Of a DNA stretch of 64,000 nt, positions 1 through 52,811 are shown one piece after another. A program made the position numbers and the translations under genes. A model generated the notes under the pieces. The model made no database searches. It was not told the DNA's origin and saw nothing but the letters and a program-made list of their open reading frames with translations. Origin of the DNA: a virus; IMG/VR virus record IMGVR_UViG_3300036820_000010, positions 1-64,000 of that record, one strand, 5' to 3'. The stretch's first letter is position 1. The number at the start of each line of letters is the position of its first letter.

Positions 1-329
1 GTACGGTCTGGTCCGGCTTGTCGGTACGGTCTGGTGTGGATTGTCGGACAGGTCTGGTCTGGATAGTCGGAGAGGTTTGGGAGGGCGAGGTATGTCAGAT
101 GAGGTCTAGAATGGATTGTCGGGGAGATCTGGCGAGGATTGTCGGTGAGGTATGGGCTGTCGGACAGGCTTGGATTGTCGAGAGGGGAGGTGAGGCTTGT
201 CGGGAGGTCTGGGCTGGAAGGTCGGGGAGGCATGGATTGTCAGAAAGGTTCTAGACAGGCTTGTCGGTGCGGCTTGGATTGTCGGTGGGGTATGGAGTGT
301 CGGTGAGGTCTGGATTGTCAGAAAGGCAG
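1..329. repeat. Array of ~55 GG-NNN pentamers grouped 3-5 per unit and separated by GTC; candidate guide-RNA array for the adjacent Cas7-like protein; runs off the left edge
   Basis: GTC separators start at 20,43,66,94,118,141,159,177,199,221,239,263,281,299,317. Unit lengths are mostly 5n+3 (18, 23, 28). Example: ggtac ggtct ggtgt ggatt gtc. Confidence 0.9.
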
Positions 330-343
330 ACTCTTCTTTGTCT

Positions 344-985
344 TCAGTCCCCGATCGGCTCGAACCTCTCTAAAGAATAAGTCCCTGAACCCTGAGAACG
401 GTCGGCACCGATACCGTTGTCCTGTAGGTACTCAAGAATAGTCTTGAGTTGAGACTCCTGGATGACTCCATCGTTGAGGACCCGAATGCGGAAGGAGATA
501 GGAACCTCCAGGGCGTACTCTACACGCTTGATCGAGGTCCGAGGCCCCTGCATCGTCATCACCTGGATAGGACGCTCTTCAACGTGAAAGAAATCCTCAG
601 GGTGGTGGGCCTCTCCGCACCGACACCTGATCTCGCAACCCCCAATACGAGGATCAACGAATACCCTCTCGGCCAGACGAGCACGGAAGTTCTTGACGTC
701 CAGCATTCCCTTGAGGATGTTGGCCCCCTCCTTCAAGGCTGCCTTGAAGGCTCGAGACTCATAGTGAGCAACCAGGTTGCGGTCTCGCCAAAAGACAACC
801 ATGTGGGTCTCTTCGAGATCGATCTCGGCCAGACGCTCGAGTTGAACCTTGGCTGCATCGAGGGCTTCCTTGGGCGCCTTCTTGGACGAAAGCCAAGACT
901 CGATCAACCTAGGATTAGCCGGGAAACCCCCGGTCAACCTAGTGGCCGTGAGTTCTACCTGATACGAATTCCACATGTTGGGCAA
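344..985 (-). CDS. Solo Cas7/Csm3-like RAMP superfamily protein
   Basis: N-terminal strand YQVELTATRLTGG, helix ESRAFKAALKE (like RAMP GSSxKGxxR) and C-terminal Gly-rich loop GIGADRSQGSG. SD AGGAGGAG (993-1000) lies 7 nt before TTG at 985; ATG at 976 is the alternative start. Confidence 0.8.
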   Translation of the reverse strand: MPNMWNSYQVELTATRLTGGFPANPRLIESWLSSKKAPKEALDAAKVQLERLAEIDLEETHMVVFWRDRNLVAHYESRAFKAALKEGANILKGMLDVKNFRARLAERVFVDPRIGGCEIRCRCGEAHHPEDFFHVEERPIQVMTMQGPRTSIKRVEYALEVPISFRIRVLNDGVIQESQLKTILEYLQDNGIGADRSQGSGTYSLERFEPIGD

Positions 986-998
986 TACTAAACTCCTC

Positions 999-1049
999 CT
1001 ACTGATTGATCTGGGGTCGTGTTCCCATGAATATAGTATAACACAGGAA
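999..1049 (-). promoter_or_regulatory. Extended -10 promoter (TGtTATACT) with a leaderless 9-aa uORF MGTRPQINQ whose stop overlaps the SD of the Cas7-like gene
   Basis: TATACT at 1040-1035, ATG at 1028, TAG at 1001-999. A 28-nt block is identical to 4016-4043. Confidence 0.6.
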
Positions 1050-1210: not shown

Positions 1211-2128
1211 ATGGAAACTTACAAATTTCACCCTGCAGCCAACCTTTTCCCGATGATGGATGAAACCCTTACCGAGGAACTTACTGAATCTATCAGGGAC
1301 CAAGGCTATGACGAAACCGAACCCCTCAAGATTTACCAGGGTCAAATCTTGGACGGACGAAATAGGTATCTGGTATGCCAAGCATTGGACATCGAGCCCA
1401 AAGTTGTCGAGTGGGTAGGGAGTGACCCCTGGCATGCCGTGATCCGCTGGAACATGACCAGAAGAGACTTGACCCTGGACCAAAAGACTGCCATTGCTGC
1501 CCAAGCCGCGCCCAAACTTCTAGAAGAAGCAAGGCGGAGGCAAGGAGATAGCCTCCCCCGAGAAGGACAAAGAGGCTTTCAACCCAATGTGCAACAGGAT
1601 CCTGTTGCACATTCTAAGAACCCTACTCGAGATGAACTAGCCAAGACCTTCAACATCAGCACCCACCAAGCAACTCAAGCCATGAAGTTAGCCGACCGGG
1701 AGGAGGATACTGAAGAATCAAGAGAAATCAAAGCCTCCCTAAGAGAAGAAGTCAGGTCGGGAACTAAGAAGGCAGTTGATGCTGTCAAGATACTGACCCC
1801 ACCTACTCCCAGGACTACCCCTGAAGTTCCTGAGTACACGATGAGGGGCCAAGGTTGGAGTTTGTCTACTCCGACTTTGGACACTTCTGGAGTCTGGAAG
1901 TTGATCAGGGATGTAGAACACTCTGTAGAAAGACTCAAGTACTCAGACCAAAGAGACCCCAGGAGAGAAGTTCTTCCCCAAGAGATCCTGGACAAACTTT
2001 TGAGTCTTCTGGACCAGAACGACTTGAGGTCAGAAATCAGTTCCCTGCAGCGTGAAGTAACTTACTTGGAAGACCTCCTCCAGGTCATGAAACAACCAAA
2101 TCGTATGAGGATTTTGAGGAATGGCTAA
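1211..2128 (+). CDS. ParB-like N-terminal domain protein
   Basis: HPAANLFPMM..LTESIRDQG..EPL..ILDGRNR..NMTRRDLT pattern of phage ParB/Srx-domain proteins; SD AAGGAG. Confidence 0.75.
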   Translation: METYKFHPAANLFPMMDETLTEELTESIRDQGYDETEPLKIYQGQILDGRNRYLVCQALDIEPKVVEWVGSDPWHAVIRWNMTRRDLTLDQKTAIAAQAAPKLLEEARRRQGDSLPREGQRGFQPNVQQDPVAHSKNPTRDELAKTFNISTHQATQAMKLADREEDTEESREIKASLREEVRSGTKKAVDAVKILTPPTPRTTPEVPEYTMRGQGWSLSTPTLDTSGVWKLIRDVEHSVERLKYSDQRDPRREVLPQEILDKLLSLLDQNDLRSEISSLQREVTYLEDLLQVMKQPNRMRILRNG

Positions 2129-3606: not shown

Positions 3607-4022
3607 TAGATCTTCTTGCCTTGGCTCGAGTTCAACTCCCTCTGCTTCTCGAGCATGCGTTCCTTCTCGTCGTTGAGTTTCTGTTCATCGATCCGGAAGT
3701 ATTCGGCCAGGATACTAGTCGTCTTGAGGAGAGACTCGAAGTAGTAAGGCCCGTAGACCGTCGAGGGCGGTTGCGGAATCCCAAGGGCTATCTCGACACC
3801 CAGTTGCTCAGTCGACTTCTCAGGAGTGCACTTTGGGCAAGTCTTTGCCGTCAGAGGCAGAAGAGTCTCGCAACCAGAACAGGTATTCGACCACTCACAG
3901 ATGGAGTACCTGGACTTCAACCACTCTAAAAAATCTCCAGCCTCGTTGGGTAGACTCCCCAACGCCTTGAGTTTAGCGTGTTCCGGGTACTCTTCCTTGG
4001 TGTCCGTCTTGGTGTTTCCCAT
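3606..4022 (-). CDS. Zinc-ribbon-containing hypothetical protein, leaderless
   Basis: CSGC..CPKC; ATG 6 nt after TATACT (4034-4029). Confidence 0.7.
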   Translation of the reverse strand: MGNTKTDTKEEYPEHAKLKALGSLPNEAGDFLEWLKSRYSICEWSNTCSGCETLLPLTAKTCPKCTPEKSTEQLGVEIALGIPQPPSTVYGPYYFESLLKTTSILAEYFRIDEQKLNDEKERMLEKQRELNSSQGKKI

Positions 4023-4087
4023 GAATATAGTATAACACAGGAAAAAGTTCTTCGCGTGATCGAGTCTTTTCCTGTATAATCATAGAC
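4016..4087. promoter_or_regulatory. Divergent leaderless promoters
   Basis: Minus strand TGtTATACT-6 nt-ATG(4022); plus strand TATAAT(4075-4080)-7 nt-ATG(4088). Confidence 0.65.
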
Positions 4088-4510: not shown

Positions 4511-4610
4511 CCTAGTCATCAAGATGAAAGAAGACCTTCGATTCGCTAAATTGGCCTTGATGCAGAGGGTACGCCTTCTCTTGTATCGGTTGACCTATGT
4601 TGACCTATGA
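4368..4610 (+). CDS. Hypothetical protein (MSIPG start)
   Basis: Stop overlaps the next gene (ATGA at 4607); overlaps the previous ORF by ~140 nt. Confidence 0.45.
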   Translation: MSIPGLPGVYPEDLIWEYRENQDKSSGLVLSTPFEGPHLTISERIPADLVIKMKEDLRFAKLALMQRVRLLLYRLTYVDL

Positions 4611-4858
4611 TCCCTGATTACATCCTCAACGCCAACCAAGACCAAGACCAAGTCCCGAATCCCCCAGAAACCGAAGAAGGCGACTGGTGGGCCTGGTACC
4701 GCAGGTCCCGCCATACTAGGGTATGGACCCTCATCGGGGTCTACTCTTCTGAGTTAGTAGCTCAGGGAGCAGTCAAAACTTACCTCGACACCACCAGGGA
4801 CCCTTCCCAGTACTCTATCCGCGTCCTCAAGGCGGGAGTCAGGCCCAATGATTCCTGA
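4607..4858 (+). CDS. IPDY-motif small protein
   Basis: Starts MIPDYILN. Confidence 0.75.
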   Translation: MIPDYILNANQDQDQVPNPPETEEGDWWAWYRRSRHTRVWTLIGVYSSELVAQGAVKTYLDTTRDPSQYSIRVLKAGVRPNDS

Positions 4859-5171
4859 CTACATCCTCAACTCGAGTTCTAAGAATACCCCCTGCACGGA
4901 CTCACATCACTTAGAGAATCACCCGGACACTGTCTTCGTGGGTGCCAGACTCCACTCATTCCAGGCCCAATTTCCTGAAGTCGACCATGCCGTCCTATTC
5001 ACCTGCTCTAACTGCAAGTACGCGAGACGAATAATCTACAACCACCTGAGAGAAACCCTCTACTGCGAGATCTACACTTGGCATTTGGGGCCCAAACCCA
5101 GATGGGTTTGGGCAGTCGTCAAAGATACACTCCACATCTCAAAGGCCAAGGCAGTGAGGATCCCTGAGTAA
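4848..5171 (+). CDS. IPDY-motif Cys/His protein, paralog of 5176-5502
   Basis: MIPDYILN; EVDHAVLFTCSNCKY. Confidence 0.75.
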   Translation: MIPDYILNSSSKNTPCTDSHHLENHPDTVFVGARLHSFQAQFPEVDHAVLFTCSNCKYARRIIYNHLRETLYCEIYTWHLGPKPRWVWAVVKDTLHISKAKAVRIPE

Positions 5172-5175
5172 AACT

Positions 5176-5502
5176 ATGATTCCTGACTACTTGTTCCACC
5201 CCGGAGAAGAAAGCAAGGCTTGCACCATCCATTCTTTAGTCTGTCAACCTGACGCTCTACTCACTGGAAGACTCCTGCACAATCCCGAACAGAATTCTCC
5301 CCCGCATGAGGTAGATCATGCTGTCTTGTTCACTTGTCCAAACTGTAAGTACATGAAACGAGTAGTCTTTAATCCTGACGCCCAACCCCTCTACGTCGAG
5401 GAATTCACCTGGTCATTCAAACAACTCAAGTGGATCTGGGTCGTAAGCCTAGACCTCATCGCCCTGAGCAGAGAAGAGTTTAGGGGAGGGGAAAGTCCAT
5501 GA
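5176..5502 (+). CDS. IPDY-motif Cys/His protein, paralog of 4848-5171
   Basis: MIPDYLFH; EVDHAVLFTCPNCKY. Confidence 0.75.
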   Translation: MIPDYLFHPGEESKACTIHSLVCQPDALLTGRLLHNPEQNSPPHEVDHAVLFTCPNCKYMKRVVFNPDAQPLYVEEFTWSFKQLKWIWVVSLDLIALSREEFRGGESP

Positions 5503-5810
5503 CCATCCCTGGGTATGTCTTCAAGCACCAGTGTAGGTGTGCTGGCTGTGACCCAAGACTAGATCCCAATGGACCCAGGCTTGGCCCAAGGCACTTTGCG
5601 GTTCGCTTCGGGGATCATATTCTCCAGGCTTGTTTAGACGGTGAGCCGATCGTGAACTGCTATGAGTTGCACACTGACTTAGAAGTGGGTTGGCTGATCA
5701 ACCTTCCTGCTCACCGCTGTTCCAATTGTGGTCTGGGTGCGTGTTGCAGCATGGTTCAAGGCAAATTCAGTGTGGAGGCCGGGATTCCTGGTTCAGGGGT
5801 CAAGGCATGA
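5499..5810 (+). CDS. IPxY-motif Cys-rich protein
   Basis: MTIPGYVFK; CRCAGC, CSNC; ATGA overlaps at both ends. Confidence 0.7.
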   Translation: MTIPGYVFKHQCRCAGCDPRLDPNGPRLGPRHFAVRFGDHILQACLDGEPIVNCYELHTDLEVGWLINLPAHRCSNCGLGACCSMVQGKFSVEAGIPGSGVKA

Positions 5811-6310
5811 TTCCTGACTACCTGTTCAAACCTTTAGAACCCGAGGAACTTCTAGGCACTGAGTACGTCACTGAAGGCAAGACCAGAAGTCCCCAAAGGA
5901 TAAAGAAGGTAATCAATTTAGTCCCAGAACTTGGCGCTCGCCATCGAGTTGAGACAGCAGTGAGGATATTCTATTTACCTCTAGATATCAGTTGGGCAGT
6001 AGACGCCTTACTTGACTTCTCCAAAACCTGTATGTCCGAGGCAGTAGGAGTTCTGGCCAGGACTAACTTAGACCCAAGTGAGAAAGACAGGATCTATGAC
6101 CTGGCTGCAGTCGAGTACAAGGCAGCCAAGGACCTAGTTAAGGAACTAGAAACTTCAGGTTGGCCAACCAATCAGGCCGCGGACCTGCTCCTGACCCAGA
6201 TCATGCTCCGACGACTCTTGACTTGGATCCTAGATCTGATCGCGCAGACCCAAATCAGAATCCATGATGCCCACATGCCCCAGGAGGAAGCTGACAATGG
6301 AGATTCCTGA
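5807..6310 (+). CDS. IPDY-motif helical protein
   Basis: MIPDYLFK at an ATGA overlap. Confidence 0.75.
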   Translation: MIPDYLFKPLEPEELLGTEYVTEGKTRSPQRIKKVINLVPELGARHRVETAVRIFYLPLDISWAVDALLDFSKTCMSEAVGVLARTNLDPSEKDRIYDLAAVEYKAAKDLVKELETSGWPTNQAADLLLTQIMLRRLLTWILDLIAQTQIRIHDAHMPQEEADNGDS

Positions 6311-7506: not shown

Positions 7507-7631
7507 TCCCTGACTACATTCTCAGAAATTCTAGGATCCCGGAATGTCTCCACCCCAAACGAGCAGTTCAAAGATACGATGGGTACTTTTTTTTGTTCCG
7601 TAAGGTAGTAAAAGGTCAACAATACCCATGA
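7503..7631 (+). CDS. IPDY-motif small protein (42 aa, not in ORF track)
   Basis: MIPDYILRNSRIPECLH.. Confidence 0.65.
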   Translation: MIPDYILRNSRIPECLHPKRAVQRYDGYFFLFRKVVKGQQYP

Positions 7632-7640
7632 AGACTCTCA

Positions 7641-10667: not shown

Positions 10668-10810
10668 CCTGCCTTTAAATCTCGCCTCACCCGCATCTTC
10701 TGCAGGTCTCTTGTTGATCGCGCGTGCATGCGCATTCCGAAGCGCTTCTTGGTAACCTTGCGGTCGCGCCTAGAGATTCGGTTGACCTCAGCGCTGATTT
10801 TGATGCCCAT
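10664..10810 (-). CDS. Leaderless Arg/Lys-rich 48-aa protein (not in ORF track)
   Basis: MGIKISAEVNRISRRDRKVTKKRFGMRMHARSTRDLQKMRVRRDLKAG; preceded by the third copy of the TGtTATACT-ATATTC-ATG promoter. Confidence 0.6.
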   Translation of the reverse strand: MGIKISAEVNRISRRDRKVTKKRFGMRMHARSTRDLQKMRVRRDLKAG

Positions 10811-10902
10811 GAATATAGTATAACAGGTCTACTTAAGTTTCGTCAAGGTGAGGATCCCGAGATTTCTTCTGAGGATCTCGTTATCCTTGATGGACAGAGC
10901 CT

Positions 10903-28404: not shown

Positions 28405-28826
28405 ACTCGACAGTTATCTCGTCTGCTATCTTTGCTGCAGCGGCTGTCGTTATGGGACTTGCTACTACTCTTGAAGCGTATCGAGCGGTGGTCATCACTG
28501 ACCCGTTCCGGGGCCTAGCCTCACTCGCCTTTCTGGTCTTAACTGTAACCCTGGGCTACGAAGCCTTCGCCATCGACGAGAACAAACCCAAGATCTTCCC
28601 AACCATCTCAAGGGAAACTGCACTTGCCTTCGCCAAGTTCCCGGGTATCGGACTGGTAATTATCGGGGTGGTCATGATCACTGCGGGAGCACTCTTCAAG
28701 CACTTCACCCAGCAAGACACGAAAGTCTTAGGTCAGTACACAGGCTGGATCGTCATTGGGGTAGCATGCGTCGAGATCATCGTCGGAGGAATTCTGACAA
28801 CTGTAACCCATTGGCAGGCACTGTAG
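28401..28826 (+). CDS. Four-TM membrane protein
   Basis: Hydrophobic segments. Confidence 0.65.
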   Translation: MNSTVISSAIFAAAAVVMGLATTLEAYRAVVITDPFRGLASLAFLVLTVTLGYEAFAIDENKPKIFPTISRETALAFAKFPGIGLVIIGVVMITAGALFKHFTQQDTKVLGQYTGWIVIGVACVEIIVGGILTTVTHWQAL

Positions 28827-28836
28827 GTGAACGCGG

Positions 28837-29184
28837 ATGCCGGAAGCCCTGAACTTAACTGGACTGATCAACGATGGGGGGTGGGTCTTCGCGACCATGG
28901 AGGCTATGGTCCTCCTGTATGCCTTCCTGAATGGACGAGTCGTCCAGGGGAGACTGTTCGATAGATCCCAAGGCCAGATCGACAAGATTCTGCCCGCCTT
29001 GACTTCTGTAACAGCTACACTCAAGGACGCGACTCAACTCCTCTCCCAAGTCTCTACTAGACTAGCAGCACTCGAAGCCCGAATGACGGGGACAGAAAAG
29101 AACCTCGCCAACCTAGACGGTGATATAGGCGATATGAGAGTGAACGCCGACCTGCCTTATCGAGGCCCCAGGCGAGGTGACTGA
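28837..29184 (+). CDS. TM plus coiled-coil protein (lysis region)
   Basis: N-terminal TM helix and heptad pattern. Confidence 0.6.
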   Translation: MPEALNLTGLINDGGWVFATMEAMVLLYAFLNGRVVQGRLFDRSQGQIDKILPALTSVTATLKDATQLLSQVSTRLAALEARMTGTEKNLANLDGDIGDMRVNADLPYRGPRRGD

Positions 29185-52349: not shown

Positions 52350-52811
52350 CTAGTTAGCCGGGTGTCCAGTATCCGGGAAACCCGGAACCACAGGCGCTGT
52401 CTGCACCTGAGACCCGACAACTGCAGGAGTTCCCCCACCCGAGCCGGTTCCCGTCGTCTGCGTTGACGGGGGAGTCGGCGTCGAGGTCGGAGTTGGAGTA
52501 GAAGTTGGGACAGGCGTCGGAGTCGGAGTAGGCACAGGAGTTGGAGTAGCCGTCGGGGATGGGCAAGGGGTGGGCTTGACGCAGTCGTGGTTGTTCCCAC
52601 CCTGGTCATTTCCACCCTGCAGAATCACCCCATAAGTCTGACCCCCACAGTTCTTACCCCCGTTGCCTCCATTACCTCCCTGGCCACCGTTCCCCTGGTT
52701 GTTATTCCCACCGGAGAAGTTAGCACTCGCCGAGATAGAGAAGACAACTAAACCGACCAGGATTGCGGCCACCCCCAGGATGACCTTGATTGACTTGAGA
52801 CCTCTGATCAC
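52350..52811 (-). CDS. Secreted Gly/Asn-rich protein with PT linker and FPDTG motif
   Basis: Signal peptide (ASA), (PT)n tract, C-terminal FPDTG; SD AGGAGG. Confidence 0.7.
   Translation of the reverse strand: MIRGLKSIKVILGVAAILVGLVVFSISASANFSGGNNNQGNGGQGGNGGNGGKNCGGQTYGVILQGGNDQGGNNHDCVKPTPCPSPTATPTPVPTPTPTPVPTSTPTPTSTPTPPSTQTTGTGSGGGTPAVVGSQVQTAPVVPGFPDTGHPAN

What the first reader, a model, noticed from the sequence alone, without database searches (positions are those of the whole stretch)
1..1049. Solo Cas7-like RAMP gene abutting a non-CRISPR GG-NNN repeat array: candidate minimal RNA-guided system
Seen: a ~210-aa protein with RAMP hallmarks (N-terminal strand, KAAL helix, terminal GIGADRSQGSG loop, small CRC..HH insert). 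Its stop (344) lies 14 bp from a highly periodic array. No cas1/2/3/5/6/8/10 gene and no canonical CRISPR occur in the 64 kb. Established: Cas7/Csm3 proteins oligomerise along guide RNA with a fixed per-subunit footprint. Inference: each GG-NNN pentamer may be one subunit footprint, with GG as the protein-bound anchor and the variable bases reading a target non-contiguously, for example to silence competing phages or host genes without a nuclease. From memory and unverified, this resembles recently reported viral Cas7-like 'VIPR' systems with GGY/NN RNAs; here the third base is often A or G and the array has GTC punctuation.
Basis: partly seen in the sequence, partly recalled or inferred. Interest (0 to 1): 0.95.

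Follow-up and report, generated by a model that had tools for sequence, protein, structure and literature searches.

The report
Phage VIPR system with comma-punctuated guides
A soil phage carries a small Cas7-like protein gene next to a five-base-periodic array. This is a real copy of the VIPR RNA-guided DNA-silencing systems published in 2026, in a little-studied form whose guide strand and targets are still unknown.

Summary
Gene 344-976 (minus strand, 210 aa) folds with high confidence as a single-domain RAMP/Cas7 protein. It is a distant but significant homologue of the characterised SUSP1 Vipr (PDB 36pp): profile-profile probability 94%, E 9e-8. Fourteen bases past its stop begins a GG-NNN pentamer array. 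The array runs off the window and continues at the other end of the 84.6-kb phage contig, about 610 nt in all.

The grammar is GTC + (GGNNN)3-6. The same grammar sits beside homologues in most of about 60 phage and MAG loci, down to 30% protein identity. No cas genes, CRISPR array or conserved accessory gene are present.

However, VIPR is already published (bioRxiv 10.64898/2026.04.26.720920), and this scan has already noted it on other DNA (115 notes, at least 97 genomes). This locus is therefore a new member of a known kind.

Three things remain open:
- The GG strand is antisense to vipr throughout the family, and transcription signals do not settle which strand is the guide.
- The units are unusually short.
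- No target was found.

Interest is moderate.

The parts
1..316 (+). Window part of the vrRNA array. It holds 15 units of the form GTC + (GGNNN)3-5, written here on the GG strand, which is antisense to vipr. It continues at the other contig end (contig 84253-84580).
   Evidence: Lag-5 GG periodicity is about 6 sd above shuffles. The same grammar is found in homologue loci.
94..117 (+). Irregular 24-nt unit (GTCAGATGAGG..TCTAGA..). It is a possible boundary between longer guides. A similar unit lies at 239-262.
   Evidence: parse, read directly from the sequence. Its function is not tested.
239..262 (+). Second irregular 24-nt unit (GTCAGAAAGG..TCTAGA..).
317..343 (+). Terminal irregular element (GTCAGAAAGG plus a weak 4-bp hairpin) between the last regular unit and the vipr stop. 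No terminator-like site was found here.
344..976 (-). vipr, a 210-aa single-RRM RAMP (Cas7-like) protein. An alternative TTG start lies at 985.
   Evidence: AF2 pLDDT 93.3. Foldseek hits type VII Cas7, Cmr4 and Csm3 at E 2e-8 to 1e-5. VIA-align gives Z 12.6 to Csm3, and the top 30 hits are all RAMPs. hhalign against the SUSP1 Vipr family gives 94.4% probability, E 9.3e-8. Between two soil samples there are 9 synonymous and 4 non-synonymous changes.
999..1028 (-). Nine-codon leaderless mini-ORF that starts at the promoter module's ATG. The Shine-Dalgarno sequence and the vipr start follow it.
   Evidence: read directly from the sequence. Whether it is translated is inferred, not shown.
1022..1047 (-). 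vipr promoter module (extended -10, TGTTATACT, with ATG about 7 nt downstream). It is one of three leftward copies in the phage (1022, 4016, 10804).

Best explanation
This is a VIPR (Viral Interference Programmable Repeat) system carried by a soil siphovirus-like phage, probably of an actinobacterial host. It has two parts: vipr (344-976, minus strand) and a vrRNA array of about 610 nt that begins 14 nt after the vipr stop and spans the contig junction.

The mechanism below is inferred by homology to the SUSP1 system. Vipr protomers bind one pentamer each along the array RNA. They sequester the constant GG (plus the third base) and present the remaining bases. These pair discontinuously with double-stranded DNA of a competing mobile element and block its transcription. 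No nuclease or accessory gene is present.

Clade-specific anatomy, shown here:
- The RNA is written as GTC + (GGNNN)3-6 units.
- The unit-terminal pentamer is semi-constant (GGATT before the comma).
- There is no 3' tail and no ribozyme, so the array is of the 'staggered/contiguous' kind.

I take the GG strand (window plus strand, convergent with vipr) as the guide, at about 55-60%. The basis is protein homology to a GG-binding Vipr.
For: Fold. The AF2 model has pLDDT 93 and pTM 0.87. The best PDB matches are all CRISPR RAMPs: Foldseek E 2e-8 and VIA Z 12.6/12.2 to Csm3/Cmr4. The best viral match is a phage 'RAMP superfamily protein', E 6e-12.

Homology to a tested Vipr. I located SUSP1 Vipr in KT454805.2 at 28474-29061, with H17, R138, D177, W178 and R179 as in the paper. 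It equals PDB 36pp. Family profiles align over helix-1, thumb and G-loop at 94.4% probability, E 9.3e-8 (78% with the smaller profile).

Array. Periodicity is far above chance and unique in the contig.

Co-occurrence. In 51 IMG/VR loci and 8 MAG loci, most homologues have a 5-nt GG array directly downstream or upstream. GTC commas persist down to 30% protein identity, and the variable bases differ between loci.

Minimal locus. There was no Cas1 or Pfam RAMP match in the contig, no CRISPR-like repeat in the window and no conserved neighbour gene.

Viral setting. The contig has portal, protease, MCP, tape measure and PolA genes. The ESM Atlas neighbours are 89-100% viral.

Selection. Between two soil samples vipr shows 9 synonymous and 4 non-synonymous changes, while the array has an 84-nt segment replaced and about 150 nt that do not lay at 85% identity or more.

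Against: - No RNA data: no RNA run holds the locus.
- No target was found in the phage's own genome or in about 390 kb of related loci, under seven pairing rules and comma gaps of 0-6 nt.
- The GG strand is antisense to vipr, unlike SUSP1.
- In this locus the clear signals lie on the vipr strand. These are a strong promoter and a hairpin plus T-run 170 nt past the array. No sigma-70-like promoter was found on the GG strand.
- Units are very short (seven of 25 are 18 nt) and low in diversity. GGTGA-GGTAT-GGGCT occurs twice, and TRF sees 18-nt tandem copies. Individual units therefore cannot specify a unique site.
- GGA pentamers are common, and the SUSP1 paper tested a GGY>GGA substitution among changes that perturb silencing.
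- Only one of the G-contacting residues of SUSP1 is clearly conserved: the R of the G-loop, plus possibly the D.
Confidence: 0.85

Rival explanations
1. Same VIPR family, but in this clade the guide is the vipr-sense, C-phased strand, 5'-(NNNCC)n-GAC-3'. It would be made as the 3' UTR (or, in some relatives, the 5' leader) of the vipr mRNA and then cut at the commas. That would be a mirror-image code.
For: In nearly all loci the CC strand is the vipr strand, whether the array lies downstream or upstream of the gene.

Own locus: promoter (1022-1047), then vipr, then the array with only a 14-nt gap and no terminator, then a hairpin plus T-run on that strand 170 nt past the array. No promoter-like site was found on the GG strand.

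L031: the array fills the whole space between an upstream same-strand gene and the vipr RBS.

In six loci a same-strand gene starts within 120 nt of the array's far end.

Mae-JY09: the array lies at the right genome end after an all-rightward gene block and is followed by a 12-bp hairpin.

An earlier scan note on another phage reached a similar reading (unchecked).
Against: The only characterised Vipr binds GGY, and the proteins are homologous.

In L023, L033, L035, L036, L044 and L054 a strong 10-14-bp GC hairpin stands between the vipr stop and the array, as expected for two convergent units.

In 8 of 18 loci the far-side neighbour is on the GG strand. This includes the closest relative, L060, where a GG-strand gene ends at the array.

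Downstream same-strand genes can have their own leaderless promoters, so read-through is not required (my reading of L007 and L011).

L011 has a small array in the opposite orientation.
Confidence: 0.3
2. The locus is a decaying or idle VIPR copy. The gene is intact, but the window-proximal array is a recent tandem amplification of 18-nt units with too little information to guide anything.
For: Units are 18-nt and low in diversity. TRF reports period 18 with 82% matches. There is an 80% duplicate block between the two contig ends. No target was found.
Against: vipr is under purifying selection between two samples. All family-invariant residues are present. Short units of 18-28 nt also occur in relatives at 42-44% identity, so they are a clade habit and not decay. 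The distal half of the array has longer, more diverse units of 28-33 nt.
Confidence: 0.1
3. The repeats act as DNA. They would be iterons or a centromere bound by the neighbouring ParB-like protein (1211-2128), or part of the replication origin near the contig junction. The RAMP protein would be unrelated to them.
For: A ParB-like gene lies 235 nt from vipr. A large palindrome and an AT-rich stretch lie about 600-800 nt beyond the array.
Against: The same array grammar travels with vipr homologues in dozens of unrelated genome contexts that have no ParB-like neighbour. The 5-nt GG period is the published Vipr RNA footprint.
Confidence: 0.03
4. The gene is an orphan Cas7 that plugs into, or poisons, a host type III/IV/VII CRISPR complex (an anti-CRISPR decoy). 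The adjacent repeats would be incidental.
For: The best solved-structure matches are Csm3, Cmr4 and type VII Cas7.
Against: Sequence homology is closest to the Vipr family, not to any Cas7 family. There is no Pfam RAMP hit, and only a G-loop match to Csm4 at E 0.14. The protein lacks CRISPR-RAMP elaborations. Its conserved linkage is to pentamer arrays, not to CRISPR loci.
Confidence: 0.03

Closest known systems
Type II VIPR of Escherichia phage SUSP1 (Vipr = KT454805.2 28474-29061, PDB 36pp; bioRxiv 10.64898/2026.04.26.720920 and .720927)
   Same: Both have a protein of about 200 aa with a single-RRM RAMP fold, helix-1, thumb and G-loop, and the two are homologous by profile. Both have 5-nt tandem repeats with constant GG next to the gene. 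Both are phage-encoded, and neither has cas genes or a CRISPR array.
   Different: - SUSP1 has discrete vrRNAs of about 100 nt, each with 9-16 GGY-NN repeats, its own promoter and a structured 3' tail. These lie on the same strand as vipr, and a vap1 gene is present.
- Here the array is one contiguous block cut by GTC commas into 3-6-pentamer units. The third base is not restricted to Y.
- Here there is no tail and no vap, and GG is on the strand opposite vipr.
- Protein identity is only about 15%.
- Of the G-contacting residues H17, R138, D177 and W178, at most the G-loop D/R are retained.
VIPR types with 'staggered' vrRNA arrays and NNNGG-type repeats (same preprint, Results, Methods 'VIPR type classification', fig. 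S18 legend)
   Same: Both have contiguous arrays in which one guide ends where the next begins. Both have an NNNGG consensus rather than strict YNNGG and lack an interspersed ribozyme.
   Different: I could not see the figures or tables. Whether this clade is one of the seven types, and whether the 3-nt GTC comma and the antisense orientation are described, is therefore unknown. The paper's text says staggered arrays were not confirmed by sRNA-seq.
CRISPR class 1 backbone RAMPs: Csm3/Cmr4 (type III) and type VII Cas7
   Same: These are the best structural matches (Z 11-12.6, 134-162 aligned residues). In both cases one subunit binds per fixed RNA step, with a thumb that disrupts pairing periodically.
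   Different: The step is 6 nt on a contiguous spacer, against 5 nt here with only 2-3 read bases. Class 1 systems need Cas5/Cas10 or Cas8 partners, Cas6 processing and CRISPR repeats, none of which is present here. Sequence identity is 10-18%.

Membership tests
VIPR system (Vipr + vrRNA) | Vipr protein: a small single-RRM RAMP with a glycine-rich loop and a thumb | tested here: met
   AF2 pLDDT 93. Foldseek and VIA top hits are all RAMPs. The GIGADRSQGSG loop lies between the last helix and the last strand, and there is a long beta-hairpin at 131-167.
VIPR system (Vipr + vrRNA) | Sequence homology to an experimentally characterised Vipr | tested here: met
   hhalign of the family profile A3 against the SUSP1-family profile A2 gives 94.4% probability, E 9.3e-8, over 132 columns. 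SUSP1 Vipr was identified by the paper's residues and by PDB 36pp.
VIPR system (Vipr + vrRNA) | Adjacent tandem pentanucleotide repeats with a conserved GG(Y) and variable remaining bases, at least 4 repeats | tested here: met
   GG is invariant in 62-65 of 65 in-register pentamers. Lag-5 periodicity is about 6 sd above shuffles. However, Y at position 3 is found in only 54% of pentamers overall, so this is the NNNGG variant that the paper lists.
VIPR system (Vipr + vrRNA) | Array linked to the vipr gene across relatives, with hypervariable read positions | tested here: met
   A strain-level array difference is seen.
VIPR system (Vipr + vrRNA) | Minimal non-CRISPR locus, mostly in phages | tested here: met
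   The contig is a phage. No Cas1 or Pfam RAMP match in the contig and no CRISPR-like repeat in the window.
VIPR system (Vipr + vrRNA) | Accessory vap gene | tested here: not met
   No conserved neighbour was found across 52 loci, and none in this locus. The paper says some Viprs are stand-alone, and it names six vap genes for seven types, so this feature is not obligatory.
VIPR system (Vipr + vrRNA) | vrRNA is expressed, processed and bound by Vipr | not testable with these tools
   No RNA run holds the locus. Promoter and terminator scans are ambiguous about the strand.
VIPR system (Vipr + vrRNA) | Guides match DNA of rival elements under the 1-nt-skip rule | tested here: inconclusive
   Nothing rose above shuffled controls in the phage's own genome or in about 390 kb of fetched loci. 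The best hit was 16/18, which is expected once in about 400 shuffles and about 245 tests were run. No large database could be searched with degenerate guides.
CRISPR-Cas type III / VII effector | Cas7 accompanied by Cas5/Cas10 (or Cas14), Cas6 and a CRISPR array of 24-40-nt repeats and spacers | tested here: not met
   There was no Cas1 and no second RAMP in the contig, and no CRISPR-like repeat in the window. Neighbouring genes are unrelated phage genes.
Hammerhead-interspersed VIPR arrays | Self-cleaving ribozymes between guides | tested here: not met
   No Rfam match at E up to 10 in the array region. No gathering-level match in 20 relatives' loci.

The most novel reading that the evidence does not exclude
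In this large Vipr clade the functional guide would be the C-phased, vipr-sense strand. It would be co-transcribed with the gene and cut at 8-nt constant commas (GACAATCC here; AATGCGAC and GTCACGAC in relatives) into very short guides that each begin with a fixed tag, crRNA-like. That would be a mirror-image VIPR code and a closer formal bridge to CRISPR crRNA architecture. The resemblance of AAUGCGAC to 8-nt crRNA 5' tags is from my memory only. A literature search did not confirm it.
Probability: 0.25. Interest if true: 0.75.

Novelty: new member of a known kind. Interest (0 to 1): 0.4.

Why it matters
VIPR was described only in 2026, and experiments cover types II, III and V. This locus belongs to a large branch that has not been characterised: 2104 clusters at 50% identity at E 1e-3 or better.

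The branch's arrays have a conserved three-base comma, very short units, no accessory gene, and a GG strand fixed antisense to the protein gene.

Working out which strand is the guide, and how the comma is read, would show how far the pentamer code can vary. It would also show whether arrays of short guides can act together on one target. The locus is compact, about 1.7 kb with its promoter, so the question is easy to test at the bench.

Tried and rejected
1. Sequence libraries. Pfam, PHROGs and PDB sequence searches with the protein alone gave nothing. The A1 profile hits only the Csm4 G-loop, at E 0.14.

2. Ribozymes. There is no hammerhead or other Rfam family in the array or in 20 relatives' loci.

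3. Target search. Decoded guides were tried under NN or NNN read positions, target periods 2-5 and comma gaps 0-6. They were searched against the phage's own genome and, for 33 guide runs from 12 loci, against about 390 kb of fetched loci. Nothing exceeded shuffled controls. The single 16/18 self-match at 7610-7636 is not significant after multiple testing.

5. IMG/VR-wide pattern search. I did not run an IMG/VR-wide search with decoded guide patterns. It would have meant typing a changed sequence, and patterns with variable gaps must start with 4 plain bases.

6. Close relatives of the phage as a target database. Only one 50%-identical MCP contig and one identical fragment exist in IMG/VR.

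The loci of the 60-64% identical homologues P0004-P0006 were therefore not seen. L060 (61%) came from genome contigs instead.

8. RNA evidence. No RNA holder is listed.

9. blastn of the array against GenBank phages gave no match.

10. The strand of the guide was not settled by promoter and terminator scans, hairpin surveys or neighbour-gene orientation.

11. vap candidates. Downstream genes of relatives are unrelated to one another (NeuB, epimerase, SLOG, an intein-containing gene, unknowns).

12. The ORF beside L011's mini-array is not a second Vipr.

Full report
WHAT IS THERE

The window is the first 64 kb of an 84,580-bp IMG/VR phage contig. On the minus strand an ORF ends at 344 and starts at ATG 976 (210 aa), or at TTG 985, which lies 9 nt after an AGGAGG.

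The gene is driven by a promoter module, TGTTATACTATATTCATGGG. This is an extended -10 with an ATG about 7 nt downstream. It occurs three times in the phage, always leftward, at 1022, 4016 and 10804. At the other two copies the ATG is the start of a leaderless gene. Here it opens a 9-codon mini-ORF ahead of the vipr Shine-Dalgarno sequence.

THE ARRAY

From position 1 to 316 the plus strand is a chain of GG-NNN pentamers broken by GTC. There are 15 units of 18, 23 or 28 nt (3 + 5n), two irregular 24-nt units that contain TCTAGA (94-117, 239-262), and a terminal irregular element (317-343) that abuts the vipr stop.

The GG lag-5 count is 30, against 11.4 +/- 2.9 in dinucleotide shuffles. The whole contig has no other such region except its far end. 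There, at contig 84253-84580, the same grammar continues with longer, more varied units of 28-33 nt.

The last 35 nt of the contig repeat the first 35 nt, with errors, after an 18-G run. An independent assembly of the same run breaks at the same G-run. I infer a circular or permuted genome with one array of about 610 nt and roughly 28 units.

Within units the first pentamer tends to GG-N-G-A. Internal pentamers are GG-Y-N-T (Y in 81%). The last pentamer is mostly GGATT.

THE PROTEIN

Sixty-six homologues were found by word-indexed search and none has a Pfam domain. A profile search of 1.84 billion representatives finds 2104 clusters at E 1e-3 or better and 1325 at E 1e-10 or better.

With a 61-sequence alignment AlphaFold2 gives pLDDT 93.3 and pTM 0.87. 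Foldseek's best PDB hits are type VII Cas7, Cmr4 and Csm3 (E 2e-8 to 1e-5). An exhaustive VIA-align run puts only CRISPR RAMPs in the top 30 (Csm3 Z 12.6, Cmr4 12.2). The best viral model is a phage 'RAMP superfamily protein' (E 6e-12). ESM Atlas neighbours are 89-100% viral.

The Cys/His insert (C114, C118, C120, H124, H125, H131) occurs in the query and, among the aligned relatives shown, in P0005.

LINK TO VIPR

Two 2026 preprints describe VIPR. A Vipr RAMP polymerises on vrRNAs made of GGY/NN pentamers and binds dsDNA by a one-nucleotide-skip code. The systems sit mostly in phages and aim at rival elements. The preprints define seven types, some with NNNGG-type repeats, 'staggered' contiguous arrays or hammerhead-separated guides.

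I located the SUSP1 locus in KT454805.2. The 195-aa gene at 28474-29061 has H17, R138, D177, W178 and R179 as published and is PDB 36pp.

Profile-profile comparison of my family with the SUSP1 family gives 78% probability (E 1.9e-5) with 61 sequences. With 142 sequences it gives 94.4% (E 9.3e-8) over 132 columns that cover helix-1, the thumb and the G-loop. The protein is therefore a distant Vipr, not of type II.

CO-OCCURRENCE WITH ARRAYS

Fifty-one IMG/VR loci and eight MAG loci encode relatives. The MAGs are Acidimicrobiaceae, Dormibacteria, Actinomycetes, Anaerolineaceae, Betaproteobacteria and Nanopelagicales.

Most loci have a 5-nt GG array directly after the gene. In one subclade the array lies directly before it.

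The comma is conserved across the family. It is GTC alone in the near relatives. In distant relatives it is GTC plus a semi-constant pentamer (GTCGCATY, GTCGTGAC, GTCGAATG), with units of 28-48 nt.

The cultured Microcystis phage Mae-JY09 has the same arrangement. No neighbouring gene is conserved across the family and this locus has none, so there is no vap. No hammerhead is present. There was no Cas1 or Pfam RAMP match in the contig, and no CRISPR-like repeat in the window.

STRAIN COMPARISON

A second soil sample holds a near-identical phage. In vipr it differs at 13 sites, 9 synonymous and 4 non-synonymous.

In the array, a contig replaces 84 nt (207-292) with 7 other letters, and the first 150 nt or so do not lay at 85% identity or more. 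The contigs there are short, so this is a hint of fast array turnover and not proof.

THE OPEN QUESTION: WHICH STRAND IS THE GUIDE

In SUSP1 the GG strand is the vipr strand. Here, and in nearly every relative, it is the opposite strand, whether the array is downstream or upstream.

Evidence for the GG strand:
- The protein is homologous to a GG-binding Vipr.
- A 10-14-bp GC hairpin stands between the vipr stop and the array in L023, L033, L035, L036, L044 and L054.
- GG-strand genes lie on the far side in 8 of 18 loci, including the closest relative L060.

Evidence for the vipr-sense (CC) strand:
- In this locus a strong promoter, no terminator between gene and array, and a hairpin plus T-run 170 nt past the array all lie on the vipr strand. 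No promoter-like site was found on the other strand.
- In L031 the array fills the gap between an upstream gene and the vipr RBS.
- In six loci a same-strand gene starts within 120 nt of the array's far end.

I put the GG strand at about 55-60% and the sense strand at about 30%.

TARGETS

None was found. Close relatives of the phage are almost absent from IMG/VR. The nearest cultured phages are actinobacteriophages at 24% MCP identity.

VERDICT

The system class is published, and this scan has already logged many VIPR loci on other DNA (115 notes in at least 97 genomes). This is therefore a new member of a known kind.

Three features are worth noting:
- a family-wide three-base comma with very short units;
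- no accessory gene;
- a fixed antisense relation between gene and GG strand that leaves the guide strand unresolved.

Noticed in passing
contig 83437-83522 (L002:481-566), outside the window: There is a large near-perfect palindrome built of TTCCAAG/CTTGGAA blocks. An AT-rich stretch (L002:640-700) follows it. Both lie in a non-coding region of about 1.1 kb between the array and the next gene. This is a candidate origin or packaging site.
   Followed up: no
contig 80653-80696, 81060-81103, 81728-81771 (outside the window); window 1022-1047, 4016-4041, 10804-10829: There are two classes of phage promoter-start modules that place an ATG about 7 nt after the -10, giving leaderless genes. Three are identical 44-bp rightward modules (TTGACA-17-TATATT-ATGGGAAC). 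Three are leftward TGTTATACT modules. This points to an actinobacterial-type host.
   Followed up: partly
contig 84529-84546 (L002:1573-1590): An 18-G run lies inside the array at the contig end. Two assemblies both break there. It could be a real homopolymer or a sequencing artefact.
   Followed up: partly
window 1211-2128 (+): A ParB-like protein (phrog_4715, E 2e-8) is transcribed divergently from vipr. It is not conserved next to vipr homologues.
   Followed up: partly
window 52453-52575: A second GG-rich repeat has a 6/18-nt period (GGAGTN units). Its period is a multiple of three, so it is probably coding and is not a VIPR array.
   Followed up: no
window 4607-5810: A run of small ORFs all begin M-I-P-D-Y-[IL] (MIPDYILN, MIPDYLFH, MTIPGYVF). 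They share an N-terminal tag on otherwise different small proteins.
   Followed up: no
L011:1866-2026: A relative carries a small three-unit GTC-punctuated array about 1 kb upstream of vipr, in the opposite orientation to its main array.
   Followed up: partly
L014:1034-2852 and 4964-6065: A relative has about 3 kb of array blocks on both sides of vipr. All have GG antisense to the gene and a constant 8-nt comma (GTCGTGAC on the GG strand).
   Followed up: partly
window 586-636 (protein residues 114-131): A Cys3/His3 insert in Vipr is seen in the query and, among the aligned relatives shown, in P0005. It may be a small zinc site in the loop ahead of the thumb hairpin.
   Followed up: no
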